Source: a virus | Virus record (IMG/VR): IMGVR_UViG_3300019888_000107 | Location: 32,001 to 96,000 of that record | Strand: one strand, 5' to 3' | DNA: 64,000 bases | Shown: positions 28,645 through 56,367 of the stretch, in pieces | Layout: the number at the start of each line of letters is the position of its first letter | How positions within the stretch are numbered: the stretch's first letter is position 1 | Notes under the pieces: model-generated | Database searches by the model: none | What the model was told of the DNA's origin: nothing | Seen by the model: only the letters and a program-made list of their open reading frames with translations | Translations under genes and position numbers: made by a program

Positions 28645-28645
28645 T

Positions 28646-28795
28646 CTAGTACCAGCGCCTTCCGGAGTAATGCCCGGTATTGCCAAGGATGAAGAGGACG
28701 GCGCCAATCACCAGAAGAATCACGCCGAGGGTGTACAGAATGGAGATACCGAGAACCCAACCCAGAATGAGCAGGATGACACCCAGAACGATCAT
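28646..28795 (-). CDS. DUF6131-like small membrane protein
   Basis: MIVLGVILLILGWVLGISILYTLGVILLVIGAVLFILG..GRRWY. Confidence 0.7.
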   Translation of the reverse strand: MIVLGVILLILGWVLGISILYTLGVILLVIGAVLFILGNTGHYSGRRWY

Positions 28796-29031
28796 GACCG
28801 TTTCTCCTGGCAGAGGCTCAGATAGGCTCGGCGATCAAGCAGCTTGTCGATGTCATCGCGGTACCGTACGGCAAGATCAGGGGACACAGCCTTGAGTCGG
28901 GCGTGCACGTGAGCGATATGGGTATCAATAGCCGCCACGGTGTCGCACTGGTAGGTGCGCCCGTCCGAGCCGATCACGGTATCAATCGTGATCCTGTGAG
29001 TACGCGGCGAAGCGGGTGCGGACACGGGCAA
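28792..29031 (-). CDS. Hypothetical protein
   Basis: Coupled to the downstream gene. Confidence 0.5.
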   Translation of the reverse strand: MPVSAPASPRTHRITIDTVIGSDGRTYQCDTVAAIDTHIAHVHARLKAVSPDLAVRYRDDIDKLLDRRAYLSLCQEKRS

Positions 29032-29052
29032 TCACCTCCCGAATATTGGGGG

Positions 29053-29090
29053 TTGACCTCCAGCGCATGCTGAGTAAGCTGACTTACATG
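29053..29090 (+). promoter_or_regulatory. SigA-like promoter for a leaderless gene
   Basis: TTGACC-16-TAAGCT-GACTTAC-ATG. Confidence 0.55.
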
Positions 29091-30914: not shown

Positions 30915-33900
30915 CTAGGCGGCATCGGCCCAAGCGAATGCTGGCGCGGACGGTTCGGCAATGATCGAGATCCCGTTCATCTGCGTCTCCATCGCGGCAA
31001 CCAGCGCGGAGGTAGCCTCGACCGCATCCTCCGCCGGCACGAATACGTCCAACTCGTCGTGCACCGGCAACAATACGCACCGACCCCACCGCGTGTCGCC
31101 CCAGCGGATCAGGGCGTCGACCAGGAGTTCACGGGCACTGCCCTGAATCGCGGCGTTCGGACCCTTATGCGGGAGCCGCGGATCGAAATGGATGATCCGC
31201 CCTGAATAGCTGGGATACGCAACATGCCCGGCCTTGATGGCGTTGCGGATGTCAGCCGACCAGGCGGTCAGACCGGGTGTCATCGCGTCCAACGTATCAA
31301 CGGCGGCTTGCGCAACCGCATGAGTGGTGCCACCCTGGGCGGCAAGGGTCGGGATACCCCCGCCGTATAAGCGTCCGAATACAATTCGTTTGGCCACATA
31401 GCGATGTTCTTTCTTCGGTGTGGGCTCGCCCGTCGGGTTTTTCTCGGATACCTCGGACGCTTTCGGACATGCCCCAAACACCTGCAACGCGATCTCAGCG
31501 TGCAAGTCACGACCCTCAGCGAGAAATTGCCGTAGCGTCGTATCCCCGGACAACGCGGCGGCCACTCGCAACTCCACACCACTAAAGTCCGCGCCAATCA
31601 TCAACTGCCCCGGATCGGCGGTGATACACGCGCGAACTCCACCTTGCCTACTAAGTTGTTGAAGATTCAACCTTACACAAGACATGCGTCCCGTCACGGT
31701 GCCCAAGGTATAAACCGTCGGACGCACCCGACCATCACCACGCTCACACAGTTGCGTCATAGGCTCCAGGAACGTACCGATAACCGTCGAATGATGCCGA
31801 TAATCAAGTACCGCGCGAGCCACGTCCCCGACTGCACCCTGATCGAGTTCCGCAAGGGGTTCAAGGACTTCTTTGGCTACCGAGGGTGCACCGGTTTTTT
31901 TCGATAGCGGCAACGTCGCGCCGAGCTCAACCATCACGGCGGCCACCTGCTTGCTCGACCCCGCGTTCTCAATCCCGAACGTTGCAACCCGTTCGCGGGC
32001 GGCGGCTTGGGCGGGTCGGTGTTCGGCCAGCTTCGCGGCTATGTGCTCGGCGTCCAGGCGTACCCCGTGATGAGCCACCCGAGCTGTCATGCGTTGAGCG
32101 AGCCGTTCCCGATAGACAATCTTAGGGTCGGCGATAGGAAGTTCGCGTGCGACAGCGTGGGTGTCGAGGACATCAGACGCGGCGTAACGGATCATCGTCG
32201 AGCGGGTGTAGTCGCATTGTGCCCAACCGGACCGTTCCACCGGAGTTTCAATCTTGGTATCGGTCAACCAACCGGCGGCCTTGAACAGTGCGGCACGTCC
32301 CTCACCAGCCCCCGGTGCGACCGAGCGGGTACCAAGCACAGCATCCGCCAACTTCTTCAAACCGGGATCGCTGCCGGTGGACTGCGGGTCGCCGAGCTTC
32401 GCGGGGATGACGGTGTCGTGCATCCGATCCCACGCCGATTCCAGCTCGATCAGCTCAGCGGCCACCAGAGGCACCAGATCAGCCGTGGCGGAGTGGGCGT
32501 GCAGGAACGTCGCTTCGGCCAGCAGCGTGGCAACCAGAGCCGTCTGAGCGGGGTCCTGCGCATCGAGCACCACCGCGGCTTCGTCGTCGCCGAGCTGGAT
32601 GGTGCGCAGCGCGTACAGCGCATGGCCGACGGGGTAGCCGGTGTTCTCGATATCGACGGTGAGCGCGCCACCGGTTCGCGCCAGGCAATCCCGCACGACC
32701 TTGAGCACCTGGACCTCAGTGAGCTGCACCGCGTGACCACCGCGATCAACTCCAGCGGGCAGACCGATGTACTCGCCAGCGGCGGCGTCGATACCAGCCC
32801 GGCACATGGCCAGCTTCTCCGCGACCTTGACTTTCGCCTTGAGCGTTTTCAGTTCCGCTCGCGCGTCGACCTTGCTGATGCCACGCGTATTTGCCCACAC
32901 CGTGACCTGATGGGGCGTCACGTTCCGTAGCGGCGAGTAGCCCTCGGGGAGCCCATCGGGCAGCGCTGCACCCGCGTCGGCGCATTTTCGCAGGTCAACG
33001 GCAGTATTTTCAGCCAAATCCGCCTCGGTGTGGAGGGTTTCGGCAGGTGTGGAGGGTTCCGAAATCCTTGTTTTTGCTGGTGAAGCCGCGTTTTTGTGAT
33101 CAACTGTGGAGGGTGGAGGGTCGTCACATATAGGGGCCATATATGGCGCATGTGGTATACGTACTTCTTCTTCTTCTACTTCTTGTGTATTTGTTGTCTG
33201 TAAACCCTCCACACCCTCCACAGAAGAAGAAAAAACGGGGGGTGAGCTGGGGTTTTCGGGTGTGGAGGGTTGAGCGCTAGACCCTCCACCAACCCTCCAC
33301 GGACCCTCCACATTTGGAGTGATTCCAGTTTGGCGAGCCTGGTGAGCAGCGACCTCAGCCGAGATCGGTGCTCCCGGCGAACTCGCCGTCCCGGGACCCC
33401 CCGGAACAGAATCGAAAAATCCGTGCCCCCCGTCGACCCGGATCCGCAGTGCCCGGTACCGCCCATCCCTACGGTCGGTAGCGGGATAGTTCAGCTCGTT
33501 GAGGCGAACACCCCATTTTGTGATCTCCAGATGGAGGTTTTTGGCGACGTTGTGGTTGCGGCACCAGCCGATGAACGCGTCGTGCAGCGTCCCGGATCGG
33601 GTGCCGGCCTCCCACGGTTCGCAGGCGTCGTCCACCCACTGCTTGACGGGGTCCTGCTCCTCGGCGATCTCCTCAGCCTGGAAGCGGATGCCCGGCGGCG
33701 CGGCCGAGGTGAGTGCGGAGTTGGGGTCGGCTAACCAGGCGGCGGCTTCAGCCATCAGGAACGCCAGCACCCCCGGAGCCTCGCCGGCCCACACCGCTGG
33801 GGTGAGCGCGCGCCGGACGGTTTCCACCACCTGGGGAGCACCCTCACACGGGATCAACCGGGCCCGCCGTCGGACGGCCGCATCGACCAGCGAAGGCTTG

Positions 33901-35960
33901 TGGTTGGCCGTGAGGATCAGCGTGTGGGTGGGCCGGAACGTGATGGGGTTTTGGTTCATCGCGTTCCCGGTCAGCTCGCCCCCACCGGAGTACCTCTTCA
34001 AGCGCTCCTGAGGGCCCTTGGCGTCTGACGGGGCCTCGTCGATGAAGGACAACCGCCGCCCTTTGAGCGCGAAAATAATCGAGTCATGGGAGTTGTCCCC
34101 ACTGAGTAGTTTGGGGTTGGCGGCGTGCCCGTAGGTTCCCAAACACGACATGATGAGCGTGATGACCGACGTTTTCCCGGTTCCGGCTGGGCCTAGCAGA
34201 ATCGGTAGCGCCGCGTCGGGATACCCGGTCACCGAAATGGACAGCACCCGCAGCACCCACGCTCGGATGGCGGCGTCCGGCCACACCGCGACCAGCAGCG
34301 CGTCCCAATGCGGGGTGGGCATGATCTCGGGCATGACCCCGGCCGAGGATAGGTGCACGATTTTGTCGCCGACGTCGGTCAGCGCCGGACCGTCCCCGCT
34401 GGCGCGCAAGTCATAGGGCATCCCTCCGGCCCACAAAATCTCCGGATCCGAGTCCAGATCGGCCAGTTTTACCGCGCTGGGATGGATACCACCAGCAACA
34501 GTCCGCCGCATGGAAGCCGCAACAGCGTTGGCGCCCGCATTGTTTTCCATCCGTGTCCGTCGCGCGAACTGCCGGTGAGCGACGGTGTACTCAGTTTTCT
34601 TTGTGGGTAGTTCGGGATCCCCAGCGGGCATCAGTTCGACAATTTCCTCCACGGCGCGCCCTGGCAGTGCGTCTCCGTGTAGTTCCCAGCACAGCGGGCC
34701 CCGTTGCAGCCACCCGTTTCTGGTGTCGCTGGCATGGCGAATCATGGGCCGGCACCGATACAGCACAGCCTTGGCAATTTTGTGGTCGGTGTCGCATTGC
34801 GGATCGAACAGCTCAGCACCGATGACCTGCCGCCAGCCGTAGTCGATCGGGGCTGTGATCGGACCGGGCAACGGCTCGTAACGCTCCCCGGACGGGTCAA
34901 ATTCACCACGGTCGTCAATGGGTGCAGGCGCCTGTACGGTGTCGTAGCCGCCGAGGGTCAGACACGGATCCCGATCAACCGGCGAACTCGCCCCGACGGC
35001 GGTGACGGCTTTGCGAGCGGAACTGAGTAGCATAGATTCGAACTCGTGGGCCCGGCCCTCACCCGACGTTAGTTCTTCCCACAACTCACGCAGGATCTCC
35101 AGCGCAACACCCACGCCCGGGTGCCCGCTGGCGCCGAGTTGCACCACGTTGTGGGTGCGGGCGGTCATGACGTCGTGACGAGAGCCGCTTTCGGCTTTAC
35201 CCAGCTCAAGGACCGCCACCTGCGTCGCCCCGGCAACGTCGGAACACGCCACCCGCTCATCAGCCCGCAACGCGCACAGCAACTGCCAGCCGCTACCCGG
35301 GTCGGCCGCCGCCGCGCTCGCCTCGGTAGCCAACGCACCCAACTCCGCCACCCAACGAGCGGGCAATTCAGTCAGACCCGCCGGCCCCGGCACTACCCCA
35401 TCACCCGCTAACCCACCGCCGGGGTCATACCAGCGATACCGCGCACCCTCGGCCAGATCGCGGTGAATCGACGGGGCCACCACGACGTAGCGGTGATGAC
35501 GCTGGATGACCTCGATCGAGCCCCCCAAATGCGTGCCATACCGCCCGGCCGGAACGCGAAACAGCCGAATACCCGACGGCCCTGGTCCGGTCTCACTGCC
35601 CCGGGCGGTGGAGATCCAGGTAGCCGGCAGCACACCCCAGCTCGCCTCATACCCCGCGAGCACGTCGGCACCATTTTTGACTACCTCCCGGTCGGCCGCA
35701 CCCGATTCCCCCGGCACGACCTTGGTGTAGTGGTCGACGTCAAGCCCGATCACCCCGGCGGGTAGCCGCAGCGCGATGGAGTAATCGGCGTACACACCCT
35801 CCGACCACGCGGTGAGCTGTTCGGGCGACGTGTCGATCCCGTCGGCGCCGGTGAACCCGGTGGGTGGTGGAAACTTCTCGGCGGGCGGAACAGGCAGGAT
35901 CCCGCGCCAGCCGGCGGTGTAGTACGCGCTCAGAGCGGATGCGAACACAGGGGAATTCAT
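30915..35960 (-). CDS. Prim-Pol + SF3 (D5-like) helicase + family A DNA polymerase fusion
   Basis: IGLDVDHY and VVAPSIH; GPAGTGKTS and FIDEA; exonuclease TVDIEN; PolA motifs ADFSGVELR, AKRIVFGRLYGG, VHDEL. Confidence 0.88.
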   Translation of the reverse strand: MNSPVFASALSAYYTAGWRGILPVPPAEKFPPPTGFTGADGIDTSPEQLTAWSEGVYADYSIALRLPAGVIGLDVDHYTKVVPGESGAADREVVKNGADVLAGYEASWGVLPATWISTARGSETGPGPSGIRLFRVPAGRYGTHLGGSIEVIQRHHRYVVVAPSIHRDLAEGARYRWYDPGGGLAGDGVVPGPAGLTELPARWVAELGALATEASAAAADPGSGWQLLCALRADERVACSDVAGATQVAVLELGKAESGSRHDVMTARTHNVVQLGASGHPGVGVALEILRELWEELTSGEGRAHEFESMLLSSARKAVTAVGASSPVDRDPCLTLGGYDTVQAPAPIDDRGEFDPSGERYEPLPGPITAPIDYGWRQVIGAELFDPQCDTDHKIAKAVLYRCRPMIRHASDTRNGWLQRGPLCWELHGDALPGRAVEEIVELMPAGDPELPTKKTEYTVAHRQFARRTRMENNAGANAVAASMRRTVAGGIHPSAVKLADLDSDPEILWAGGMPYDLRASGDGPALTDVGDKIVHLSSAGVMPEIMPTPHWDALLVAVWPDAAIRAWVLRVLSISVTGYPDAALPILLGPAGTGKTSVITLIMSCLGTYGHAANPKLLSGDNSHDSIIFALKGRRLSFIDEAPSDAKGPQERLKRYSGGGELTGNAMNQNPITFRPTHTLILTANHKPSLVDAAVRRRARLIPCEGAPQVVETVRRALTPAVWAGEAPGVLAFLMAEAAAWLADPNSALTSAAPPGIRFQAEEIAEEQDPVKQWVDDACEPWEAGTRSGTLHDAFIGWCRNHNVAKNLHLEITKWGVRLNELNYPATDRRDGRYRALRIRVDGGHGFFDSVPGGPGTASSPGAPISAEVAAHQARQTGITPNVEGPWRVGGGSSAQPSTPENPSSPPVFSSSVEGVEGLQTTNTQEVEEEEVRIPHAPYMAPICDDPPPSTVDHKNAASPAKTRISEPSTPAETLHTEADLAENTAVDLRKCADAGAALPDGLPEGYSPLRNVTPHQVTVWANTRGISKVDARAELKTLKAKVKVAEKLAMCRAGIDAAAGEYIGLPAGVDRGGHAVQLTEVQVLKVVRDCLARTGGALTVDIENTGYPVGHALYALRTIQLGDDEAAVVLDAQDPAQTALVATLLAEATFLHAHSATADLVPLVAAELIELESAWDRMHDTVIPAKLGDPQSTGSDPGLKKLADAVLGTRSVAPGAGEGRAALFKAAGWLTDTKIETPVERSGWAQCDYTRSTMIRYAASDVLDTHAVARELPIADPKIVYRERLAQRMTARVAHHGVRLDAEHIAAKLAEHRPAQAAARERVATFGIENAGSSKQVAAVMVELGATLPLSKKTGAPSVAKEVLEPLAELDQGAVGDVARAVLDYRHHSTVIGTFLEPMTQLCERGDGRVRPTVYTLGTVTGRMSCVRLNLQQLSRQGGVRACITADPGQLMIGADFSGVELRVAAALSGDTTLRQFLAEGRDLHAEIALQVFGACPKASEVSEKNPTGEPTPKKEHRYVAKRIVFGRLYGGGIPTLAAQGGTTHAVAQAAVDTLDAMTPGLTAWSADIRNAIKAGHVAYPSYSGRIIHFDPRLPHKGPNAAIQGSARELLVDALIRWGDTRWGRCVLLPVHDELDVFVPAEDAVEATSALVAAMETQMNGISIIAEPSAPAFAWADAA
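33030..33311. repeat. Ten copies of ACCCTCCAC/GTGGAGGGT around an AT-rich core (ori candidate)
   Basis: Counted directly in both orientations. Confidence 0.75.
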
Positions 35961-46241: not shown

Positions 46242-46508
46242 CTATCCTTTATCCGATGCGCTCTCGACCGGCGTATCCACTTTCTTCCGCCGATCCGCGT
46301 GCGCCGCCCGACAAGGCCCACAGGACCCCTCGGGACGTTGATGGCAGCGCAGGTAGCCGTAGAGGGTGCCGTGCGGAATGTCGGTCGTCAGCGTCGCAAC
46401 GTATTCCCTCGCCGCTGTCCGACAGTCGACACACGAACCTTCATCCCGCTTCACGCACTGCTGATAACCATTGCGGGTGCCGTGCGCGATCTCCACGATT
46501 TTCCTCAT
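46242..46508 (-). CDS. Small protein with two HGT..GY..C..CR repeats
   Basis: HGTRNGYQQC..CVDCR and HGTLYGYLRC..CGPCR. Confidence 0.6.
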   Translation of the reverse strand: MRKIVEIAHGTRNGYQQCVKRDEGSCVDCRTAAREYVATLTTDIPHGTLYGYLRCHQRPEGSCGPCRAAHADRRKKVDTPVESASDKG

Positions 46509-47317
46509 GCCGCTTTCCCTACGTGACCAGGGCATCCCGCGCCACCGTCATGTGCGGACTGCGGGCGGAATTGCGAGCAGAAGTAGCACGACGCGTCCTC
46601 TGGGGTTGCTGGTACATCCATCAGCGTCGCTTCTCCGGTGAGCAATTTAATGGCCCACTGTTTACGAGCCTTGGTCTGCGCGAATACTTCTGCCAGTAAG
46701 ACGTCGTCGGCTGCGGAGTACTCACGCTCCCACACCCACAGTCCATCGAGCGAGCCAGCAGCGGCCGGGTACGCGGCCAGCACCACCCGTTTGACAGGCA
46801 GGCCCATTAATCGATAACCATGCGCGTAGAGCAATAGCTGAACCACGTAATGGCGGGGAGGCCCGTCAGCGGCGCGGATTTTACCCATGCTCGTTGGCGA
46901 TAGGAATTTGTGGTCTACACAAGCTTGCTCCCGAGCGTCATACAAATCAGCTGTACCCGGGTGATCGGGATGGGGCGTGACGCGCTGCTCGACTACCCAA
47001 CGAATCTCTCCCGACCGTTCGTTGTCTCCGGCAAACGCATCGGCTGCCGCGACGTGTAGGGCTTGGCCTCGCCACGACGGAAAGGGATCCGCGACGTGAT
47101 TAGTCGACGGGAGCCCCGCGAGTTTGGCGGCTACCTGGCGGCAACATACCGCCCCAAGCTCTGAGGGCCCGAGGTGGGCCTGCAGCGACCTGGGGGCTTG
47201 GGCGGCGTGCTCGTGGATAACTCGACGCAATTCAACCGCGTACCGACTAGCCCATGCCGATGATCCGTTGAGGGGGGCTGGGGCCGTCATGAATTCCGCA
47301 GCCGTGGGTGCCGTCAT
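46505..47317 (-). CDS. Cas4-like/RecB PD-(D/E)xK exonuclease
   Basis: PSELG..C, GTADL..VDHK, QLLLY, CYFC...C (Fe-S type). Confidence 0.75.
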   Translation of the reverse strand: MTAPTAAEFMTAPAPLNGSSAWASRYAVELRRVIHEHAAQAPRSLQAHLGPSELGAVCCRQVAAKLAGLPSTNHVADPFPSWRGQALHVAAADAFAGDNERSGEIRWVVEQRVTPHPDHPGTADLYDAREQACVDHKFLSPTSMGKIRAADGPPRHYVVQLLLYAHGYRLMGLPVKRVVLAAYPAAAGSLDGLWVWEREYSAADDVLLAEVFAQTKARKQWAIKLLTGEATLMDVPATPEDASCYFCSQFRPQSAHDGGAGCPGHVGKAA

Positions 47318-47613
47318 TCCCACCACCCATTCCGTTCGTGGTGGATCGCGGCGGACAGCACCCGCACACCGATGTAGAGCTGTACCGACGTCCAGAAATC
47401 GGGTGCTGGTACGACGGACCACATCGAATGTGCGGCGGAGAACCCCAGCATGAGCAGGGCGCCGGCCGCTGGGAGCCACGCGAGTCCGACGAACAGGCTG
47501 AGCCAGATGTCCTCACGCGACTTCGGTGCCGGCTTCACCATCTGAATACGCAGGATGCTGCCGGTCATTGTCGCGTTCGTGGCCTTGCGACGCAAGGATT
47601 CAGCAGTGGTCAT
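47314..47613 (-). CDS. Membrane protein
   Basis: Hydrophobic segments. Confidence 0.5.
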   Translation of the reverse strand: MTTAESLRRKATNATMTGSILRIQMVKPAPKSREDIWLSLFVGLAWLPAAGALLMLGFSAAHSMWSVVPAPDFWTSVQLYIGVRVLSAAIHHERNGWWE

Positions 47614-48069: not shown

Positions 48070-48259
48070 GAGGTATACCCCCGAAATCGAATTCGTTGTT
48101 TTTTACGCCAGCGATGAACGCAATCCACTCGTTTCGGGTGAACCACAATGCGTCAGCGTCGTCAGTTGTGGAGCGCTTAAGAGCGATCATGCCGTTGTCC
48201 AGTACAGCCACGAGCACGCAATCGCCTCGGGTGCATCGGCTGCTGGCTTTGAAGTTCAT
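48062..48259 (-). CDS. DUF397 family protein
   Basis: FKASS..GDCVLVA..FTRNEWIAFIAGVKNNEF. Confidence 0.8.
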   Translation of the reverse strand: MNFKASSRCTRGDCVLVAVLDNGMIALKRSTTDDADALWFTRNEWIAFIAGVKNNEFDFGGIPHD

Positions 48260-48699
48260 GACACACGCTCCGGCCAGTGCCAGGTACCGCCGGCTTTAGT
48301 GCGCTCGTCTTGTTCAACGCCGCGGTTGAAGAACTGCCCAGTCGGGTTGAGGACACACAAACCAACTACAGGGCCGAATCCCGCGTTGTCGCTCACTTCC
48401 GTGACGATGGCCGCGCGGCATACGGAGGTGTATGTCTGGCTGCCGTCTGGCTGTACCGGGGTTCCATGGCTGACGTAGTGACAAATTCGCCCCACGGATG
48501 GTGTCTGAGTCATATTCGATGTACCGAAATCGAACTCGTTGTTTTTCACGCCGGCCACAAACGCTGCCCATTCATCCGCAGTGAAACTGAGCATCGGCCC
48601 GTCGGCGACCTTCGAATCCCTCACACCAATCGTGCCGTCCCCTAGCTGGGCTACAGTGACGCAGGTGATGGCGCTGTAACTGCTTTTCTTGAAGTTCAT
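48256..48699 (-). CDS. DUF397 fused in frame to a second phage domain
   Basis: FKKSSYS..VRDSK..EWAAFVAGVKNNEF then PSVGRICHYV..GTWHWPER. Confidence 0.7.
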   Translation of the reverse strand: MNFKKSSYSAITCVTVAQLGDGTIGVRDSKVADGPMLSFTADEWAAFVAGVKNNEFDFGTSNMTQTPSVGRICHYVSHGTPVQPDGSQTYTSVCRAAIVTEVSDNAGFGPVVGLCVLNPTGQFFNRGVEQDERTKAGGTWHWPERVS

Positions 48700-49010
48700 G
48701 ACGCGACTCGCAGACTCCAGATGGTGGTTTGCTTCGCGTATTTCACGTATGTCTCGGGTAGGTCCGCGCGCAAGCTTTTGCTGTCCAGCCGCCATTGCAC
48801 GCTCGCCGAGAGCCGTAGTGGGGTGTGTAGGTCGGCGCTTTTGAGCAGGACGGACTTCTCACCGGGGGCGGCGGCGACCAGCTCGGCCTTGATCCCGTCT
48901 TTGATCTCGTTCAGTCGCTCCGTTGCCTCGTCGGCTGTGGCTTTGGCGGCGTCGTAGGCCGCGGCGAGCTGGTGGAGTCGGGTGTCGGGGGTGGGCTCGA
49001 TGGTGGTCAT
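48696..49010 (-). CDS. Hypothetical coiled-coil protein
   Basis: ATGA coupling. Confidence 0.6.
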   Translation of the reverse strand: MTTIEPTPDTRLHQLAAAYDAAKATADEATERLNEIKDGIKAELVAAAPGEKSVLLKSADLHTPLRLSASVQWRLDSKSLRADLPETYVKYAKQTTIWSLRVAS

Positions 49011-50018: not shown

Positions 50019-50387
50019 TCATGCCGGCGGTCGGGTGATTGCCCCGTGGGAATATTCTTCGATCAGGTCCCACACAGCGTCGATATCGGCGGTGGCGAAG
50101 AACAGGTCGGAGGCTTGGCTATCGGTGAGACCTAGTTCTCGCTGAGCGACAGCTTTGACACGTTCTCCTGTCGTGAGATACCCGGTATGAACGCTGTCGT
50201 ACGGGCCGAAGTGCGGTTCGTAACCGCTCAGCAGGACGGTCCACCCCGCAATACACCCGCGTGTGCCGCAGGTTCGGTGGGCGATCCACACGTCCAGATC
50301 TAATTCTTCTGGGTGCGCGGTGACGTGCTCCATGACCTTCCGGAACAACGGTACATTCAGCTCGGGCTCGGTCGTGATCTCAGTCAT
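50019..50387 (-). CDS. Hypothetical phage protein (CGTxxCIAGW motif)
   Basis: AAGGAG RBS; motif. Confidence 0.65.
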   Translation of the reverse strand: MTEITTEPELNVPLFRKVMEHVTAHPEELDLDVWIAHRTCGTRGCIAGWTVLLSGYEPHFGPYDSVHTGYLTTGERVKAVAQRELGLTDSQASDLFFATADIDAVWDLIEEYSHGAITRPPA

Positions 50388-50390
50388 GAT

Positions 50391-50570
50391 TTACTCCTTG
50401 TCCCAGTCGTCAGCATCTTCGTAGTAGACCAGCCCGCCGTCAGCCCACTCCTCGGGGCCCTCGCCGTACACATCGGGGTGTATGACACGCAGGTGATCGA
50501 GCATTTCCGCCAGACTGCGGGAGATCTCATCCCCACAGAGGTGGCAGCCAGGTCGGTCGGGAGCGCTCAT
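50391..50570 (-). CDS. Small C2H2-like protein
   Basis: CHLC..HLRVIH. Confidence 0.55.
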   Translation of the reverse strand: MSAPDRPGCHLCGDEISRSLAEMLDHLRVIHPDVYGEGPEEWADGGLVYYEDADDWDKE

Positions 50571-50574
50571 GGGA

Positions 50575-50811
50575 TCACCGTCTCGCCGGTGGTGGTTGGC
50601 CGTTGAGTGCGGCGTTGACGGCGATGTGCCGGGGGACCAGCCAGTCTTCCCACCGACGGAATTCCTCGACACCCACCAACGCCTCACACACGGCTCTTGC
50701 TGCGGCTATCTCTTGCATTATCTCGATATTGCCGTTGGAGGCTTTTTGGCGAACCATGCTGCCCAGGATGGCGATCGAGGCCCTGAGTTCGCGTGAGACC
50801 TCAGCTGTCAT
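50575..50811 (-). CDS. Hypothetical protein
   Basis: Coupled ORF. Confidence 0.55.
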   Translation of the reverse strand: MTAEVSRELRASIAILGSMVRQKASNGNIEIMQEIAAARAVCEALVGVEEFRRWEDWLVPRHIAVNAALNGQPPPARR

Positions 50812-51113
50812 GCGCGTTCCCTTTCCGGATGTGTACGCATTTCGTTTTGGGCGGCTACGAGGTACATGAGGTGCGCTACGAGCGATGCCCAGTCGTGCGC
50901 TGTGGCGAGTTCGTGCTCTTCGAAAGCCGTTACCATGCGAGAGATGACCTCACCGGGATCCATACCCCTGGCCAACCACCGACGCATGATTACGATAGGC
51001 CCGTTGGGGCGGAACAGAATATCGTGATAATCGCTGCGGTGTTGGTCCATCGCCGCCAGCGCGAGGGTGCGTTGGGGTCCGTTGGTGGGTGACCACCAGT
51101 CGAGGTCAGCCAT
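50808..51113 (-). CDS. Hypothetical protein immediately downstream of the RAMP gene
   Basis: Start abuts the stop of 51114-51788. Confidence 0.6.
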   Translation of the reverse strand: MADLDWWSPTNGPQRTLALAAMDQHRSDYHDILFRPNGPIVIMRRWLARGMDPGEVISRMVTAFEEHELATAHDWASLVAHLMYLVAAQNEMRTHPERERA

Positions 51114-51788
51114 TTAGACCTTGTCCCACTTCGTTACGGTGTAGGTCCCGTAGCCCTGTGAACGCGTCCCACCGATGCCTTGCTTCGCACCGGTGAGCCA
51201 GATCAGCGCCCACTGTTCGTCGGTGATGAGGAAGTCCGTGACCACGGTGAAGTGCAGTTCCACGTTGTCGCAGTACTCGTCGTAGCGGATCCCGTTACCG
51301 GTGTGGACGTGCACGAAACGCTGCTCGATTCCCGTCGCCTCGGTGCGGTCGAAATGCAGTTTGTTGTCCACCACCATGACGTGCTCGGCGATAAAACCCG
51401 TGGACCCCTTATTGGTCGCACCCCACCCCCGTGACTTGAGCTTGCCGGCCGCAACACACACGTTGCACGCCTCCTTGATAGCTGATTTCAGACAACGGCC
51501 TTCCAGGTATAGGCCCCGGTCGTCACGCTTAAAACCGAGAAGGTGCCTATTGGTGTTGACCTCTTCCACGGCTGCCTCGGGACTGACGCCCCGCTCCAGC
51601 ATGGTCGTGGCCACCATCTCCCGAATGGCCTGGTCGGACTGCTCGCCCATATGACGGCGGATCCACCCCTCGGCCACCTTCGGATCGGTCGGGGTACCGC
51701 CGGCAATGCGGTCCACCAAAAGCGTCCCCTTGTAGGTAAAGGGCCATGCTTGCTTGTGGTAGGCGGCGAATACATCAGTTGAGCTCAT
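51114..51788 (-). CDS. Stand-alone Cas7/Csm3-like RAMP protein
   Basis: LYLEGRCLKSAIKEA (cf. PxIPGSSLKGxxR); thumb-like segment ending RYDEY; C-terminal G-loop GIGGTRSQGYG; AAGGAG RBS. Confidence 0.75.
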   Translation of the reverse strand: MSSTDVFAAYHKQAWPFTYKGTLLVDRIAGGTPTDPKVAEGWIRRHMGEQSDQAIREMVATTMLERGVSPEAAVEEVNTNRHLLGFKRDDRGLYLEGRCLKSAIKEACNVCVAAGKLKSRGWGATNKGSTGFIAEHVMVVDNKLHFDRTEATGIEQRFVHVHTGNGIRYDEYCDNVELHFTVVTDFLITDEQWALIWLTGAKQGIGGTRSQGYGTYTVTKWDKV

Positions 51789-51816
51789 TTCGGGTTCTCC
51801 TTTGTTGGGTTGGTGA

Positions 51817-52915
51817 GGATAGTCGGACGGGAGGGGATTGGGGCGGGGCGGGGCGGCCCGTCGGAACGGGTTGGTGGGGCGGAGGGCGGGGGGTGGGGCA
51901 GGCGCGGCGCGGCTTGTCGTACGGGACTGGTTCGGGATGGCGCGGTTTGTCGGATGGGGCAGGCGTTGAGTCGGGTAGTCGGAGCGAATTGGTCACGGTC
52001 TCGGGCAGGCGCGGCTTGTCGGAGGGGGTACGGCCTGATGTGGCCTGGAAACGGGACGGCTCGTCGGGATGGGCAGGAAACAGGTTTGGTGCGGATAGTC
52101 GGGTGTGGGCAGACACGATCGGGGCTTGGCATGGGGTGGTTTTGTCGGAGCGGACCGGCGTGGCGCGGCGTGGCATGTCGGGTTAGGGCGGGAGCGGGAC
52201 CGGATCGGGTAGTCGGAGGGGGCTGGTTTGGGCTGCCTCTGGGATGTCGGATGGGATTGGGATGGGTGGGCTTGTCGGTATGGGCCGGGACGGCTCGGTA
52301 CGGCATGGCTCGTCGGATAGGAGCGGTCCGGTGCGGCGCGGTAGGGCACGGCTGGTCGGAATGGTGCGGGGTTGATGTGGTTGGGGTCGGCCAGTCGGAT
52401 GGGAGGGGAGGGGGTCGGGGCGGAACGGGGTCGGCCCGTCGGATGGGAGGGGGTCGGGGCGGTAGGGCCTGGGGTGGCTTGTCGGAGGGGGTCGTCTTGG
52501 GATGGCTTGTCGGAGTGGGTCGGTTAGTCGGATTGGATCGGTCTGGGGCGTGGCGGGTTGGCTAGTCGGGATGGGTCTGATCAGGGTTCGGTTTGTCGAA
52601 TGGCTTGGGGGGATATGAGCGGGCTCGTCGGTTAACGGGGTTGGGCGGACGCGGGTCGGCTCGTCGGTGCGGGTAGGTAGGGATTGGCTCGTCGGAGGGG
52701 GTCGGGACGGCGCTGGCTGGTTAGGCTCGTCGGCGTGGTTCGGGTTGGATAGTCGGATTGGGTGGGATCTTGGCGTGGCTTGTCGGAAGGGCATGGTGCC
52801 GGGATGGCTTGTCGGAGTGGATCGGGGCTGGATGGGATGGCTTGTCGGAAGGGCATGGTGTGGTTACGGGATGGTCAGTCGGACAGAGCTGACGGGGATG
52901 GGGACGGAGTGTCGA
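51817..52915. repeat. Array block 1: about 32 units of (GGNNN)n-GTC
   Basis: GGNNNGTCG(G) recurs about every 20-45 nt with 5-nt GG periodicity between. Confidence 0.85.
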
Positions 52916-52924
52916 GCCGGAATG

Positions 52925-53143
52925 TCATTTCTTATCGGAGTTCTTCAACAGCATCACGATCCACCAGCCCGGCAGATAAAATGGCCACAACCACACGCAG
53001 CACAGGGACATGACCGCTGCACCCACGTAGTCTTCGGTTTCAATGGGGTCGCCCATGGAGTTGAGAAACCATCGTGCGGTGGGTACCAGGAACCCCAGCA
53101 CGCCCGCTAGGTACACCATCAGCACAATCGTTCCGGGGTCCAT
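52925..53143 (-). CDS. Small 2-TM membrane protein between array blocks
   Basis: Two hydrophobic helices; non-repetitive sequence. Confidence 0.6.
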   Translation of the reverse strand: MDPGTIVLMVYLAGVLGFLVPTARWFLNSMGDPIETEDYVGAAVMSLCCVWLWPFYLPGWWIVMLLKNSDKK

Positions 53144-53244
53144 CAGCGGCGGGTTGCCTGGTTGTAGGCCGCCGCCCGCATGGAAGCCGCTACCTCAGCG
53201 TTGATCCGAGTGACGTCGTCCACATCGGGTGGCAGGGTGCTCAT
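53143..53244 (-). CDS. Possible 33-aa peptide
   Basis: MSTLPPDVDDVTRINAEV..; TGATG coupling to the next gene. Confidence 0.35.
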   Translation of the reverse strand: MSTLPPDVDDVTRINAEVAASMRAAAYNQATRR

Positions 53245-53258
53245 GGGGATCGACTCGA

Positions 53259-53510
53259 ATCGTGTCGAATGGCATGGGTCGGGTAGGCGCGGCTTGTCGA
53301 ACGACATGGGTCGGGTAGGGGCGGCTTGTCGACCGGCTAGGCAGTGTTGGCCGGTCGGGGCGGCGTGGGTAGGGATGGTCACGGCTTGGCCTGTCGGATG
53401 GGGTTGGGGCGGCAGGGAGTAGCTTGTCGAAGGGGGTAGGGAGGGGATGTATCGGCATGTCGAAAGGCCTGGGTCGGGGATGGCGCGGCTCGTCGAAACG
53501 GGAGTGTCGT
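53259..53510. repeat. Array block 2: about 7-8 units, mostly GGNNNGTCGA
   Basis: Same pentamer/GTC grammar as block 1. Confidence 0.75.
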
Positions 53511-54050
53511 TTACCGCCCGTACTTGCGCAGAGAATCAAACATCGTGGTGAGTTCGTGATCGGCGTAATGCTCGCTGACGGTTCGGGTGCCAACCTTTTT
53601 GGCCAGGGCAGTCATAAACGCGTCCATGAGTCGGTTGTCTTCGGTCCGTCGTGCGTAAGTGCCCGCGACGTAGAGCAGGTCATCCCGTCGCAGTTTCCCG
53701 AGTGGTTTGCGGGAGCCGTCTTCCAACGTGAAGGGCACGTCCAGCCACCCTCGCAATTGCGTACTGTCGCCGGCCTGGTGTGTCGTGACCGCTTCGGCGA
53801 ATGCGGCGGGTCGTGCTCGGTGCCGGGCGGCGGTGCGGATCGAACGGTCCCGGTCATTGATCGCCATTCGAATGAACTGCGTCGCCTGAGCCCGCAGCCA
53901 CCCGTCGACCAGCTCGGGATCCTCAACCCGCAGTCGCTCTACTATCTCAGTGGCCACCACACAGGACGTATAGGCGCCGGAGCTGGTGGCGCTGTCAATC
54001 ACCCGACGCATTTCGGTGCCGTAGTCGCGCACGGCGACGGACGTCGTCAT
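53511..54050 (-). CDS. Hypothetical protein upstream of the array
   Basis: 179-aa ORF with AGAGG RBS. Confidence 0.7.
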   Translation of the reverse strand: MTTSVAVRDYGTEMRRVIDSATSSGAYTSCVVATEIVERLRVEDPELVDGWLRAQATQFIRMAINDRDRSIRTAARHRARPAAFAEAVTTHQAGDSTQLRGWLDVPFTLEDGSRKPLGKLRRDDLLYVAGTYARRTEDNRLMDAFMTALAKKVGTRTVSEHYADHELTTMFDSLRKYGR

Positions 54051-54092
54051 ACCTGGTCATACCTCTCTGTGCGCGCTAGGATGCGCCCTTGA

Positions 54093-54132
54093 GAGGGGCC
54101 ACGCATCCGCTGCCAAGCTGCCGTGGCCCCTC
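54093..54132. other. 11-bp intergenic hairpin
   Basis: GAGGGGCCACG/CGTGGCCCCTC. Confidence 0.5.
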
Positions 54133-54149
54133 CCCTGACTGTGATTCCC

Positions 54150-54971
54150 CTATGCGGCGGCCTTGCGCCGGCTGTTCTCGCGGAACCAGTTGCCCAGGCG
54201 AATACCCTTCGCACCGTTCAGGATCTCTACGCCGGCCGCGGCCACGGCGAACCGACGCGAGCAGTGCGTCTTTTGCTTGGTCTTCTCGGCCAGGGCCAGC
54301 AGCGCGTTGAGGCCACCGGGGATGGTGGCGAACCGGGCGATGACGTCGGTGTCGTGGAGCTGGCCTTCGTAGCGATGCAGCAGGATCCCGATCCCGTCGA
54401 TGACCGCCGAGGCCAACCCGAAGTCGCCATAAGCGGTGTGCACGATCCGCAAGGTGCGGCTCAGGTTGTCGCCGCCGGTCTGCTGGTAGATACGCCGCAG
54501 GGTGCCGATGCAGTGCACCGAGCCCTCCGTCCTGTCCATCGACACGTGCAGGCCCAGCTCGTCGAGGATGTCGCTGAGGGCGCAGTCTTCCTCGCGGCCC
54601 GCCTGGACACCGACCCGATACCTATCGAAGCCGTTGACAGCCAACACATTGTTGAGACGCAGGAACATTTCGGCTTCCTGCTGATCGGTGAGGCCGCTGA
54701 ACACGGCGCAATCGAGCTTCGTCTCACCGAGCCCCATTCCACGCATCGCCTCAATACGGTGCTGTCCGTCGATCACGTAGTGGTGACCGTCGCGGTAGTT
54801 CAGGGTGGGCACACCCACCTGCTCGATGTCGAACTGCGCGATCAGGTGGTTGACGTGGTAGGGCTTGAGTTCGCGCTGCACGAGCGGTGAGACGCGCATG
54901 ACGGCGAGGGCGACGCTCTGAATTTCAGCGTGTCGCTGAACGTCTCCGTCGGTGTTAGGCTGCTTGGGCAC
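54150..54971 (-). CDS. ParB/Srx-like DGQHR protein (DUF6551-like)
   Basis: VQREL..YVIDGQHRIEA..EAEMFLRLN. Confidence 0.75.
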   Translation of the reverse strand: MPKQPNTDGDVQRHAEIQSVALAVMRVSPLVQRELKPYHVNHLIAQFDIEQVGVPTLNYRDGHHYVIDGQHRIEAMRGMGLGETKLDCAVFSGLTDQQEAEMFLRLNNVLAVNGFDRYRVGVQAGREEDCALSDILDELGLHVSMDRTEGSVHCIGTLRRIYQQTGGDNLSRTLRIVHTAYGDFGLASAVIDGIGILLHRYEGQLHDTDVIARFATIPGGLNALLALAEKTKQKTHCSRRFAVAAAGVEILNGAKGIRLGNWFRENSRRKAAA

Positions 54972-55926
54972 GGTGGTTCAGTTCCTTCCGGAGTTTGCGC
55001 AAGTAGCGCATGGATTCATCAAGGGATTGCACCCATTTTGTCGCTTCGGCCGCATAGACTTGGTCGAAGTCGTCAAGATTGAGAAGGCTTTCGGTGGCCC
55101 TCACGGTGTTTGCGATGTCATCCACGGTGGACCCGATCACTGCGATGGGGTCCACCGTGTTTCGCGCTTTACCGATGATGCGGTCAGCACGAATCTCAAT
55201 GCCGCTTCGGGCGGCGAGTCTGCGAACGTAGAGGGGAAGTAACCCAAGTTGGTCGGCGATCTCGTGCGAGGTATGACGCTGCGCCAATACACGGATTTGT
55301 TCGATGCGTTCGGTCACAGGTCGCTTGAGCCGTTCATCAGCGGCGTTCTGGACCTTGCGCGCGATGTTGGCCCGTGTCAGGTTGTTTTCTGTACGACCTT
55401 CCGCGAGCGCTGCGTCGAACTCGTCGTTGGTCACATCGTCGGTCAATCGGTAGATCCCAGGCTTACTGGGACCAGACCCGAGTAGCGCGCTCTTGCGGGC
55501 GAAATCCGTCGGGCCGGGTTTGGTGGGGGCCACCAGGTGACCTGAACCAGTTTGGTGTTGGTTGCCACGGAAGTTGCCGCTCTCATTCCGTCCGCGGATT
55601 TCGCCGGCTTCCTGGCCGTTGCGGATCGCCTGGCCAATGCCACGTTCGGCCCTTCTGACCATTTCAAGGGCGTCGAGCTGGATCTCCTGTGCGAGGCCCT
55701 TCTGCCGGGTCATTTCGTGCACGGTGGCCGCCCACACCCGGAACGCGGCGATGGGCGTCGGGTCGCTGCCCTTGGTGGCGACCGCGAGCCAGGCTCGTGA
55801 CTCGACCAGCGCCTGAGTGATGACCACGCCTCGTTGAGCATCTGACATGGCCTCAATCTCGGCTGTGGTGATCGGGACGGGGACCAGCTCGCTGGGGGTG
55901 CTGGCGCTGCGTGGGGTGTCGGTCAT
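54955..55926 (-). CDS. Hypothetical DNA-binding protein
   Basis: HTH-like TSHEIADQLGL..YVRRL. Confidence 0.6.
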   Translation of the reverse strand: MTDTPRSASTPSELVPVPITTAEIEAMSDAQRGVVITQALVESRAWLAVATKGSDPTPIAAFRVWAATVHEMTRQKGLAQEIQLDALEMVRRAERGIGQAIRNGQEAGEIRGRNESGNFRGNQHQTGSGHLVAPTKPGPTDFARKSALLGSGPSKPGIYRLTDDVTNDEFDAALAEGRTENNLTRANIARKVQNAADERLKRPVTERIEQIRVLAQRHTSHEIADQLGLLPLYVRRLAARSGIEIRADRIIGKARNTVDPIAVIGSTVDDIANTVRATESLLNLDDFDQVYAAEATKWVQSLDESMRYLRKLRKELNHRAQAA

Positions 55927-56144
55927 GCGGAGACCTGGCTGTCATCGTCGCGGCGATCTCCGCGCAAGTACCTGGTCACATCGGCGGCGTCGACCCGCCA
56001 GACCCGGTCGATCTGTACGCCGCGGACCTTGCCGGTGTGGAGCAGACGGAGAGCCTTCTTGTAGGGAATCCGCAGCCTGCGGGCCATCTCAGCCACCGTC
56101 AGCGCTTCTGGCTGCTCCGGCGGGGTGCCTCGTGGACTGCTCAT
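55923..56144 (-). CDS. Excisionase/Cro-like HTH protein
   Basis: LTVAEMARRLRI..G..I..VWRV. Confidence 0.7.
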   Translation of the reverse strand: MSSPRGTPPEQPEALTVAEMARRLRIPYKKALRLLHTGKVRGVQIDRVWRVDAADVTRYLRGDRRDDDSQVSA

Positions 56145-56367
56145 AGATGCTGCTCTCATCGGGTAGGGATGGTTGGGGGTGCGGCGCCTAGGGGGCGGGG
56201 GAAGCCCGGTGGGGGCGTCCAGGTGCCGGCGAAGGCCACGTTAAGCCCCGAACACCCCACAACGCCACCACGCACCGCTATCTGATTACCCAAGGTTGCA
56301 AGGATCTACCCGAATGGACCAGCAGGGGGTGTTGTGTCCCTATGGCCCCCTAAGGGATCCTGTGGGC

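What the first reader, a model, noticed from the sequence alone, without database searches (positions are those of the whole stretch)
51817..52915. Grammar of the array: variable-length (GGNNN)n units punctuated by GTC
About 32 GGNNNGTCG(G) anchors counted by eye. Examples: GTC-GGAGC-GGACC-GGCGT-GGCGC-GGCGT-GGCAT-GTC (around 52144-52179) and GTC-GGATA-GGAGC-GGTCC-GGTGC-GGCGC-GGTAG-GGCAC-GGCTG-GTC (around 52312-52357). The frame is conserved while the variable bases differ between units, unlike a slippage microsatellite. A 5-nt period argues against coding. Strand asymmetry is extreme (G-rich plus strand, G-quadruplex potential), and the strand co-directional with the flanking genes is C-rich. 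Near-duplicate units at about 52777-52860 suggest growth by duplication and recombination.
Basis: seen in the sequence. Interest (0 to 1): 0.85.

Follow-up and report, generated by a model that had tools for sequence, protein, structure and literature searches.

The report
Phage VIPR-type pentamer guide-RNA array
The G-rich 1.1-kb stretch is a non-coding array of about 31 short units built from 5-base repeats, next to a small Cas7-like protein gene. It fits the phage "VIPR" RNA-guided silencing systems described in 2026, but is packed far more densely and has its GG repeat on the opposite strand to the studied examples.

Summary
Window 51805-52921 parses 88% into 179 GGNNN pentamers and 31 GTC punctuation marks (56% in shuffles). 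There is no 3-nt periodicity, and the anchors fall in all three frames.

The gene directly downstream on the minus strand (51114-51788) folds as a Cas7/Csm3-type RAMP. A helical 179-aa partner gene (53511-54050) lies upstream. This trio (partner gene, array, RAMP gene) recurs in about 40 viral and actinobacterial loci, down to 33-39% protein identity.

In the closest pair of relatives, GG and GTC are conserved while pentamer positions 4-5 are hypervariable. This is the grammar of VIPR systems (bioRxiv 2026: a lone Vipr RAMP plus GGY/NN pentamer guide RNAs).

It differs from the characterised SUSP1 type in four ways:
- 6-7 pentamers per unit, not 9-16.
- No 3' tail; units are separated only by GTC.
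- No pyrimidine at position 3.
- GG lies antisense to the RAMP gene: 204 CC versus 8 GG runs on the sense strand, against 8 versus 240 in the canonical family.

Which strand is transcribed, how the RNA is processed and what it targets remain untested. I file it as a member of a known kind, possibly a new variant. This scan had already noted the same stretch as a candidate RAMP-plus-array system.

The parts
51805..52921 (.). Array 1: 31 units of GTC + (GGNNN)n on the + strand, equivalent to GAC + (NNNCC)n on the - strand. Units mostly hold 5-8 pentamers. It fills the whole gap from the stop codon of the 72-aa ORF to the ribosome-binding site of the RAMP gene. The transcribed strand is unresolved.
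53262..53510 (.). Array 2: a shorter array with the same grammar and a GTCGAA-type anchor. It includes a 32-nt near-duplicate pair (92% matches) and starts right after the stop codon of the 179-aa partner gene.
   Evidence: (parse coverage 0.66 against 0.50 in shuffles)
51114..51788 (-). Vipr-like lone RAMP gene, 224 aa. The model shows an RRM core, a long beta-hairpin thumb (residues 153-184) and a C-terminal glycine loop GIGGTRSQGYG.
   Evidence: AF2 model pLDDT 74. Top fold matches are all Cas7/Csm3/Cmr4/type VII Cas7: VIA-align Z 11.0-11.2, with 144 chains at Z >= 8. More than 630 homologues. Weak profile similarity to the SUSP1 Vipr family.
51795..51803 (-). Ribosome-binding site (AAAGGAGAA on the - strand) of the RAMP gene. 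It follows the last array unit directly.
53511..54050 (-). Conserved 179-aa, mostly helical partner protein and candidate Vap. It is encoded just upstream of the array in 22 loci.
   Evidence: AF2 pLDDT 89. No solved-structure match: best Z 4.5, Foldseek E > 1. No Pfam or PHROG hit.
52925..53143 (-). 72-aa hydrophobic ORF that splits the array into two blocks. It is not conserved in related loci and is probably not part of the system.

Best explanation
**What it is.** The array is the guide-RNA array of a VIPR-type system (Viral Interference Programmable Repeat). It sits in an uncultivated actinophage, in an operon that reads partner gene (179 aa), array, lone RAMP gene (224 aa).

**Proposed mechanism, by analogy with the characterised SUSP1 system (inferred).**
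- The array is transcribed as a long precursor.
- RAMP protomers bind one pentamer each. They hold the fixed dinucleotide, and partly the third fixed-side base, and expose the two hypervariable bases.
- Because the filament advances in strict 5-nt register, the 3-nt GTC/GAC insertion plus its conserved flanking pentamer ends one filament and starts the next. The precursor is thus divided into 33-38-nt ribonucleoproteins of 6-7 protomers, about one filament turn in SUSP1.
- The exposed linkers are cut by the RAMP itself or by a host RNase.
- Each particle reads a gapped target in double-stranded DNA through its 6-7 variable dinucleotides and silences genes of competing phages, prophages or satellites. 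The helical partner protein assists, as Vap1 does in SUSP1.

**Which strand is the RNA.** This is open. I put about 60% on the C-rich sense strand, co-transcribed with the two genes and so using a CC rather than a GG fixed dinucleotide. I put about 40% on a G-rich antisense RNA, the NNNGG type mentioned in the preprint.

**Shown here:** the grammar, the hypervariable positions, the RAMP fold and the conserved synteny. **Inferred:** transcription, strand, processing, targeting and biological role.
For: 1. Grammar. 88% of the array parses into GGNNN and GTC tokens against 56% in shuffles. The same grammar appears in 28 of 29 further arrays from 23 related loci. Units peak sharply at 6-7 pentamers.
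2. Variable positions. In the closest pair of relatives (RAMP genes 89% identical), aligned arrays mismatch at p1 0.12, p2 0.13, p3 0.27, p4 0.52, p5 0.47 and GTC 0-0.2. This is fixed GG, semi-fixed p3 and hypervariable NN, the layout published for vrRNAs (10.64898/2026.04.26.720920).
3. RAMP neighbour. The adjacent protein is a single-RRM RAMP with a thumb and a G-loop. Every top fold hit is a Cas7-type protein.
4. Similarity to SUSP1 Vipr. An HMM of the SUSP1 Vipr family hits the window's family at E 1.7e-5 to 5e-4 in a 120-sequence test set. The reverse search gives E 7e-4. hhalign is collinear over 146 columns, including the G-loop motif G-x-G...R..[FY]GR[FY].V.
5. Synteny. A C-rich, CGAC-dense array abuts the RAMP gene in about 21 of 23 IMG/VR loci that include upstream DNA. 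The same holds in all 9 bacterial-genome loci: Nocardiopsis, Streptomyces, Streptosporangium, Actinomadura, Pedococcus, Nanopelagicales, Jatrophihabitantaceae, an unclassified Actinomycetes MAG and Caldilineaceae. It also holds in the cultured Microcystis phage Mae-JY09 at 33% identity. The partner gene is conserved in 22 loci.
6. Positive control. The same detector applied to 67 loci of the canonical Vipr family recovers the published grammar: p3 = C or T in 87%, 10-13 pentamers per run, and about 115-nt spacing that includes a tail.
7. Evidence for the sense strand.
   - Arrays fill the gap from stop codon to ribosome-binding site, leaving no room for an antisense promoter or terminator.
   - The downstream array in L022 runs into the next gene's ribosome-binding site, and the third array in L024 ends at an intrinsic terminator.
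   - In SUSP1 and 67 canonical loci the repeats lie on the vipr sense strand: 240 GG runs against 8 CC runs. In this family the strictness is the same but mirrored, with 204 CC against 8 GG.
   - The C-rich strand is almost unstructured as RNA: -25 against -75 kcal/mol per 200 nt.
Against: - No expression data.
- Weak sequence link. Similarity to characterised Vipr proteins is marginal: hhalign probability 3%, nothing at E <= 10 in the SUSP1 genome and nothing in a PDB-wide search. The SUSP1 residues that read the two guanines (H17, D177, W178) are not conserved.
- Type II features are missing. There is no pyrimidine at p3, no invariant structured 3' tail and only 6-7 pentamers per unit.
- No targets found. 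A gapped search with skips of 0-3 against 0.5 Mb of local phage DNA showed no enrichment over shuffled guides. This test had very low power.
- Low specificity. With 12-14 specified bases, each guide would have low specificity.
- Against the sense strand: all published vrRNA repeat cores quoted in the text I could read end in G or are not CC, and a 0.3-2 kb untranslated C-rich leader should be a strong Rho substrate (my own knowledge).
- Against either strand being clear: hairpins between the RAMP stop codon and downstream arrays in L028, L030 and L045 can be read either way.
Confidence: 0.75

Rival explanations
1. A RAMP-RNA ribonucleoprotein without a guide function. The lone Cas7-like protein coats the repeat RNA for another purpose, for example as a decoy or sponge for host type I/III CRISPR subunits, or as a protective or regulatory coat on the operon's mRNA leader.
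For: The RAMP fold and the tight gene-array linkage are equally compatible with this. Units are short (6-7 pentamers), no targets were found, and the array forms the 5' leader of the RAMP mRNA if it is transcribed in sense.
Against: Positions 4-5 are hypervariable between close relatives while GG and GTC are conserved. All 35 units in the window differ. This is the signature of diversifying specificity, not of a structural scaffold or decoy, which should be conserved. The characterised relatives are guides.
Confidence: 0.1
2. A DNA-level protein-binding array: iterons of a replication origin, or a centromere for the nearby ParB-like protein, with the 11-nt GGCTNGTCGGA motif as the binding site.
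For: About 31 copies of a short conserved motif at 28-46-bp spacing. A ParB-like DUF6551 gene lies 1.2 kb away, at 54150-54971.
Against: The ParB-like gene and the 323-aa HTH gene are each shared with only one other locus (two loci in all). The RAMP and the 179-aa gene are shared by 31 and 22 loci. An iteron model does not explain the 5-nt GG phasing of the 'spacers', the length ladder of 5k+3, or the strict strand polarity relative to the RAMP gene.
Confidence: 0.04
3. A translated proline-rich (minus strand) or glycine-rich (plus strand) low-complexity protein.
For: Open frames of 133-251 aa cross the array on both strands. These are expected from the composition alone.
Against: There is no 3-nt periodicity. 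Anchors fall in all three frames, 10/11/10. Unit lengths have no mod-3 preference. No single frame spans the array, and array length varies from about 260 to 2100 nt among relatives with no conserved reading frame.
Confidence: 0.01

Closest known systems
VIPR type II (Escherichia phage SUSP1, P. fulva prophage): Vipr + Vap1 + vrRNAs (bioRxiv 10.64898/2026.04.26.720920, 10.64898/2026.04.26.720927, 10.64898/2026.10.15.759431)
   Same: - Phage-borne minimal locus with a lone small RAMP (RRM, thumb, G-loop) and one accessory gene.
- Flanking non-coding tandem pentamers with a fixed GG and two hypervariable bases.
- Arrays strictly co-oriented with the RAMP gene.
- A similar G-loop motif.
   Different: - GG lies on the strand opposite to the RAMP gene. 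The sense strand carries 204 CC against 8 GG runs here, and 8 CC against 240 GG runs in the canonical family.
- Position 3 is not a pyrimidine.
- Units have 6-7 pentamers, not 9-16.
- There is no structured 3' tail, promoter or hairpin per RNA. Units are separated only by GTC plus a conserved pentamer, giving a 33-38-nt period against about 115 nt.
- Up to 31-57 units form one array, against about 4 vrRNAs in SUSP1.
- The guanine-reading residues H17, D177 and W178 are not conserved.
- The accessory protein belongs to an unrelated family.
Other VIPR architectures named in the preprints: 'staggered arrays with overlapping vrRNAs', alternative repeats NNNGG/YNNNG/NNNNG, and non-canonical cores GAC/CAC/WGT/TGH (10.64898/2026.10.21.760802)
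   Same: Back-to-back units in which the end of one RNA is the start of the next. The third position is degenerate (NNNGG if the G strand is the RNA).
   Different: The supplementary figures and tables are not held, so I could not check whether this actinobacterial clade, its GTC delimiter or its strand relation are already described. No CC-type core is listed in the readable text.
Class 1 CRISPR effector backbones (Csm3/Cmr4 of type III, Cas7 of type VII) with crRNA
   Same: Best structural matches of the 224-aa protein: Z 9-11 over about 140-160 residues. Both use a filament of RAMP subunits on a guide RNA. A conserved block of about 8 nt next to a 30-35-nt variable part recalls the 8-nt crRNA handle.
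   Different: The period is 5 nt, not 6. There are no long direct repeats and no free-sequence spacers, because the variable parts must keep the pentamer grammar. Pfam and PHROG scans of ten neighbouring proteins named no cas family, and the Pfam RAMP model does not hit the 224-aa protein.

Membership tests
VIPR (broad sense) | Lone small RAMP (single RRM, thumb hairpin, glycine-rich loop) outside a CRISPR-cas locus | tested here: met
   AF2 model. All top PDB matches are Cas7-type RAMPs, Z up to 11.2. BFVD viral RAMP-like hits at E about 1e-7. Pfam and PHROG scans of ten neighbouring proteins named no cas family.
VIPR (broad sense) | Adjacent tandem pentanucleotide repeats with fixed and variable positions | tested here: met
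   179 GGNNN pentamers; parse coverage 88% against 56% in shuffles; lag-5 autocorrelation 0.3; recurs in about 40 loci.
VIPR (broad sense) | Two hypervariable NN positions per repeat, rest conserved | tested here: met
   L015 against L026: mismatch p1 .12, p2 .13, p3 .27, p4 .52, p5 .47. This is one close pair only, and the alignment of repetitive DNA is imperfect. Entropy of p4p5 is 3.65 of 4 bits.
VIPR (broad sense) | Mainly viral or proviral, minimal locus with one accessory (vap) gene | tested here: met
   IMG/VR contig. 30 viral and 9 genomic loci. A conserved 179-aa partner in 22 loci.
VIPR (broad sense) | Sequence homology of the RAMP to characterised Vipr proteins | tested here: inconclusive
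   Targeted HMM tests give E 1.7e-5 and 7e-4 in sets of 120 sequences. hhalign gives E 0.014, probability 3%, 146 collinear columns. No hit in the SUSP1 genome or in a PDB-wide search. The SUSP1 Vipr entry 36pp is in the sequence copy but did not appear in any fold-library search.
VIPR (broad sense) | Repeat RNA is expressed and bound by the RAMP | not testable with these tools
No RNA data.
VIPR (broad sense) | Variable bases match natural DNA targets under a gapped (1-nt skip) rule | tested here: inconclusive
   No enrichment over shuffled guides for skips 0-3 in 0.5 Mb of local sequence. The database was far too small for guides with 12-16 specified bases.
VIPR type II (SUSP1-like) | GGY core (pyrimidine at position 3) | tested here: not met
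   p3 is C or T in 45% of pentamers in the window and 35% across the clade, against 87% in 28 canonical high-GC loci.
VIPR type II (SUSP1-like) | 9-16 repeats followed by an invariant structured 3' tail | tested here: not met
   The mode is 6-7 pentamers. Units abut with only GTC plus one conserved pentamer, period 33-38 nt. The canonical control shows 10-13 pentamers and about 115-nt spacing.
VIPR type II (SUSP1-like) | GG repeats on the same strand as vipr | tested here: not met
   8 GG against 204 CC runs on the sense strand here; 240 GG against 8 CC in the canonical family.
CRISPR array | Direct repeats of about 24-40 nt separated by unconstrained spacers | tested here: not met
   The conserved block is only 8-11 nt, and the 'spacers' obey the pentamer grammar. 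Rfam finds nothing at E <= 1.
Iteron / parS-type DNA binding array | Conserved linkage to the cognate DNA-binding (ParB/Rep) gene | tested here: not met
   The ParB-like gene family is present in only 2 loci, against 31 for the RAMP.

The most novel reading that the evidence does not exclude
This actinophage clade uses a mirror-image VIPR code. The guide RNAs are the C-rich sense strand, co-transcribed within the partner-array-RAMP operon. The fixed dinucleotide is CC, not GG. There are no tails, ribozymes or separate promoters. Instead, a 3-nt GAC phase break every 6-7 pentamers divides one long precursor into dozens of filament-sized guides (31-57 per array). This would show that the RAMP filament code is not tied to guanines, and that register breaks alone can delimit guides.
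Probability: 0.4. Interest if true: 0.7.

Novelty: new member of a known kind. Interest (0 to 1): 0.55.

Why it matters
VIPR systems were described only in 2026, as a minimal RNA-guided DNA-silencing machinery proposed to predate CRISPR. This locus adds a large clade: more than 630 homologues of the RAMP in metagenomes and in Actinomycetota (pro)phages, with outliers in a Chloroflexota genome and a cultured cyanophage.

Its array architecture differs from the characterised systems in three main ways. Guides are very short, they are packed without tails into arrays of dozens, and they are delimited by a 3-nt register break. The repeat also lies on the opposite strand relative to the protein gene.

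If the sense strand is the RNA, the fixed bases read by the protein are CC, which would widen the known code. If the antisense strand is the RNA, the system is transcribed head-on against its own operon. Either result bears on how guides are defined and processed in the simplest RAMP systems, and on how compact multiplexed guide arrays could be built.

Tried and rejected
- megablast of 51000-54000 against cultured phages: no match.
- Rfam at E <= 1 on 50500-54500: nothing, so no hammerhead or other known RNA family.
- Promoter and terminator consensus scan of 50300-56300: no promoter-like site, and terminators at chance level, so no help on strand.
- Single-protein scan of IMG/VR found nothing. 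The alignment-based scan worked.
- Profile A1 against the SUSP1 genome and against PDB sequences: no significant hit.
- Local target search under 12 combinations of variable positions and skip lengths: real guides did no better than shuffled guides, apart from trivial period-5 self-matches. I did not run collection-wide pattern scans, because 12-16 specified bases would give tens of chance hits per guide without a usable control.
- Codon-phase composition test of the variable triplets: weak and equal on both strands, not informative.
- A G-rich block in L044 that looked like an inverted array is the coding region of a minus-strand ORF. A CGAC-dense block in L030 (6180-6540) is coding with 3-nt spacing.
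- G-quadruplex idea: canonical G3 motifs are not enriched.
- Fold searches for the 179-aa partner protein gave no credible match. A winged-helix-like helix-turn-helix plus hairpin at residues 81-116 is only my reading of the secondary structure.
- First working guess, an origin or ParB centromere array: rejected on synteny.

Full report
**Context.** The window is bases 32001-96000 of a 110,390-bp IMG/VR viral contig, classed as linear and about 88% complete. GC content is about 62%. Neighbouring genes include a DUF397 protein, an exonuclease and a ParB-like DUF6551 protein. These, together with the homologue hosts below, point to an actinophage.

**The observation.**
- The stretch 51805-52921 is G 574, C 194, with GC skew +0.45.
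- GGNNNGTCG occurs 31 times inside it and 43 times in the rest of the window.
- A position matrix centred on GTCG shows GG every 5 nt on both sides, offset by the 3-nt GTC.
- G and GG autocorrelate at lag 5 (0.27-0.30). There is no signal at period 3.
- A dynamic-programming parse assigns 88% of the bases to 179 GGNNN pentamers and 31 GTC marks. First-order Markov shuffles reach 56% on average and 62.5% at most. The score is 896 against 292 +/- 43.
- Anchor-to-anchor distances form the ladder 28/33/38/43/48/53, with no mod-3 preference. Anchors fall equally in all three frames.
- The stretch is therefore a structured non-coding array, neither a microsatellite nor a gene.
- A second, shorter array lies at 53262-53510. 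No other array exists in the contig.

**Surroundings.**
- All flanking genes are on the minus strand.
- The array runs from the stop codon of a 72-aa ORF to the ribosome-binding site of a 224-aa gene at 51114-51788.
- That protein has no Pfam or PHROG hit but more than 630 homologues.
The AlphaFold model (pLDDT 74) matches only Cas7-type RAMPs at the top of three searches: type VII Cas7, Csm3 and Cmr4, with Z up to 11.2 and 144 chains at Z >= 8. It has the thumb hairpin and the C-terminal glycine loop.

**Conservation.**
- An alignment-based scan found 30 IMG/VR loci and 9 bacterial-genome loci, in Nocardiopsis, Streptomyces, Streptosporangium, Actinomadura, Pedococcus, Nanopelagicales, Jatrophihabitantaceae, an unclassified Actinomycetes MAG and Caldilineaceae.
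- In about 21 of 23 viral loci that include upstream DNA, and in all 9 genomic loci, a C-rich, CGAC-dense array of about 260-2100 nt abuts the gene on its sense strand, upstream or downstream. The grammar is the same, CGAC-(NNNCC)n.
- The cultured Microcystis phage Mae-JY09 has the same arrangement at 33% protein identity.
- Units peak at 6-7 pentamers.
- A second gene is conserved: a roughly 175-aa helical protein just upstream of the array in 22 loci, which is window 53511-54050. It models confidently (pLDDT 89) but has no solved-structure match.
- The ParB-like and HTH genes next to it are not conserved.

**Which positions vary.** In the closest pair of loci (L015 and L026, RAMP genes 89% identical, partner genes 80%), the arrays align at only about 67%. 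Mismatches concentrate at pentamer positions 4 and 5 (0.52 and 0.47). GG (0.12, 0.13) and GTC (0-0.2) are kept, and position 3 is intermediate at 0.27. In the window, all 35 units have different position-4/5 strings.

**Comparison with the literature.**
- A full-text search found the 2026 preprints on VIPR systems. These describe a lone Vipr RAMP whose protomers polymerise on vrRNAs made of 9-16 GGY/NN pentamers followed by a 3' tail.
- Each protomer pair sequesters GGY and presents NN to pair with double-stranded DNA, skipping every third target base. The result is silencing of competing phages and satellites.
- The preprints also mention seven types, alternative repeats (NNNGG and others), 'staggered' arrays in which one RNA ends where the next begins, and non-canonical cores.
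- The window's locus has the defining combination: lone RAMP, pentamer array with a hypervariable dinucleotide, and an accessory gene in a virus.

**Positive control and differences.**
- I located the SUSP1 locus: vipr at 28474-29061 on the minus strand, with GGYNN tracts on that same strand.
- I then fetched 80 loci of its family. My detector recovers the published grammar in them: position 3 is C or T in 87%, runs hold 10-13 pentamers, and spacing is about 115 nt including a tail.
- On the vipr sense strand the canonical family has 240 GG-phased runs against 8 CC-phased runs. In its 28 high-GC loci the counts are 102 against 4. The window's family has 8 against 204.
- The window's family therefore differs in strand relation, in lacking the pyrimidine, in unit length, in having no tail, and in using a 3-nt delimiter.
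- Sequence similarity between the two RAMP families is weak but reciprocal and collinear. It is not detectable in database-wide terms.

**Which strand is the RNA?**
- For the C-rich sense strand:
  - Arrays occupy the whole gap between a stop codon and the next ribosome-binding site, so an antisense promoter would have to lie inside various coding regions.
  - One distal array ends at an intrinsic terminator.
  - The orientation is as strict as in the canonical family, where the sense strand is experimentally the RNA.
  - The C-rich RNA is nearly unstructured, whereas the G-rich one folds strongly.
- For the G-rich antisense strand:
  - Every repeat core described so far in the readable text is G-based or at least not CC.
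  - A long untranslated C-rich leader should attract Rho (my own knowledge).
- Hairpins between the RAMP stop codon and downstream arrays can be read either way.
- I put this at about 60:40 for the sense strand. It needs stranded RNA data, which were not available.

**Mechanism proposed (inferred).** RAMP protomers bind pentamers in strict register. The GTC/GAC insertion with its conserved neighbouring pentamer breaks the register every 6-7 pentamers. The precursor is thereby divided into particles of 33-38 nt, which are then trimmed. Each particle reads a gapped DNA target through its variable dinucleotides. The 179-aa protein acts as the accessory factor.

**Targets.** None were found in the 0.5 Mb of sequence at hand, which is an underpowered test.

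**Verdict.** The feature is best explained as a VIPR-type guide array of a large actinophage clade. It belongs to a kind known since 2026. Whether its particular architecture is already covered by the preprint's supplementary classification could not be checked.

Noticed in passing
L003, L016, L017, L023, L025, L027 (viral) and L038, L040, L043 (genomic): Nine of 39 related contigs end inside or at the edge of the array, next to the RAMP gene. This suggests the arrays break assemblies through repetitiveness or population-level hypervariability, as CRISPR arrays do.
   Followed up: partly
L034 (Microcystis phage Mae-JY09, PP395641.1, 37713-38976): This is the only cultured phage with a homologue (33% identity). 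It carries the RAMP gene followed by a C-rich CGAC array and a strong hairpin at the extreme right end of its genome. It is a usable experimental system.
   Followed up: partly
window 52925-53143 (-) and about 53143-53244 (-): A 72-aa hydrophobic ORF lies between array 2 and array 1. A short ORF just upstream may be translationally coupled to it. Neither is conserved in related loci, so they look like an insertion into the array.
   Followed up: partly
window 54150-54971 (-) and 54955-55926 (-): A ParB-like DUF6551 protein (PHROG 1033, Pfam PF20188) and a 323-aa protein with a D5-like HTH region lie upstream of the module. Each is shared with only one other related locus.
   Followed up: partly
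L018 (8001-8654 and upstream): This related locus keeps the partner gene and the RAMP gene, but its 245-nt intergenic region has no pentamer array.
   Followed up: no
They include 28 high-GC loci with 3-8 GGYNN vrRNA tracts upstream of vipr.
   Followed up: partly
window 30915-35960 (-): A single 1681-aa ORF. I did not examine it.
   Followed up: no
window 48256-48795 (-) and 46505-47479 (-): A DUF397-domain protein, a domain typical of Streptomyces-like actinomycetes, and a PHROG 1674 exonuclease lie downstream of the module.
   Followed up: no
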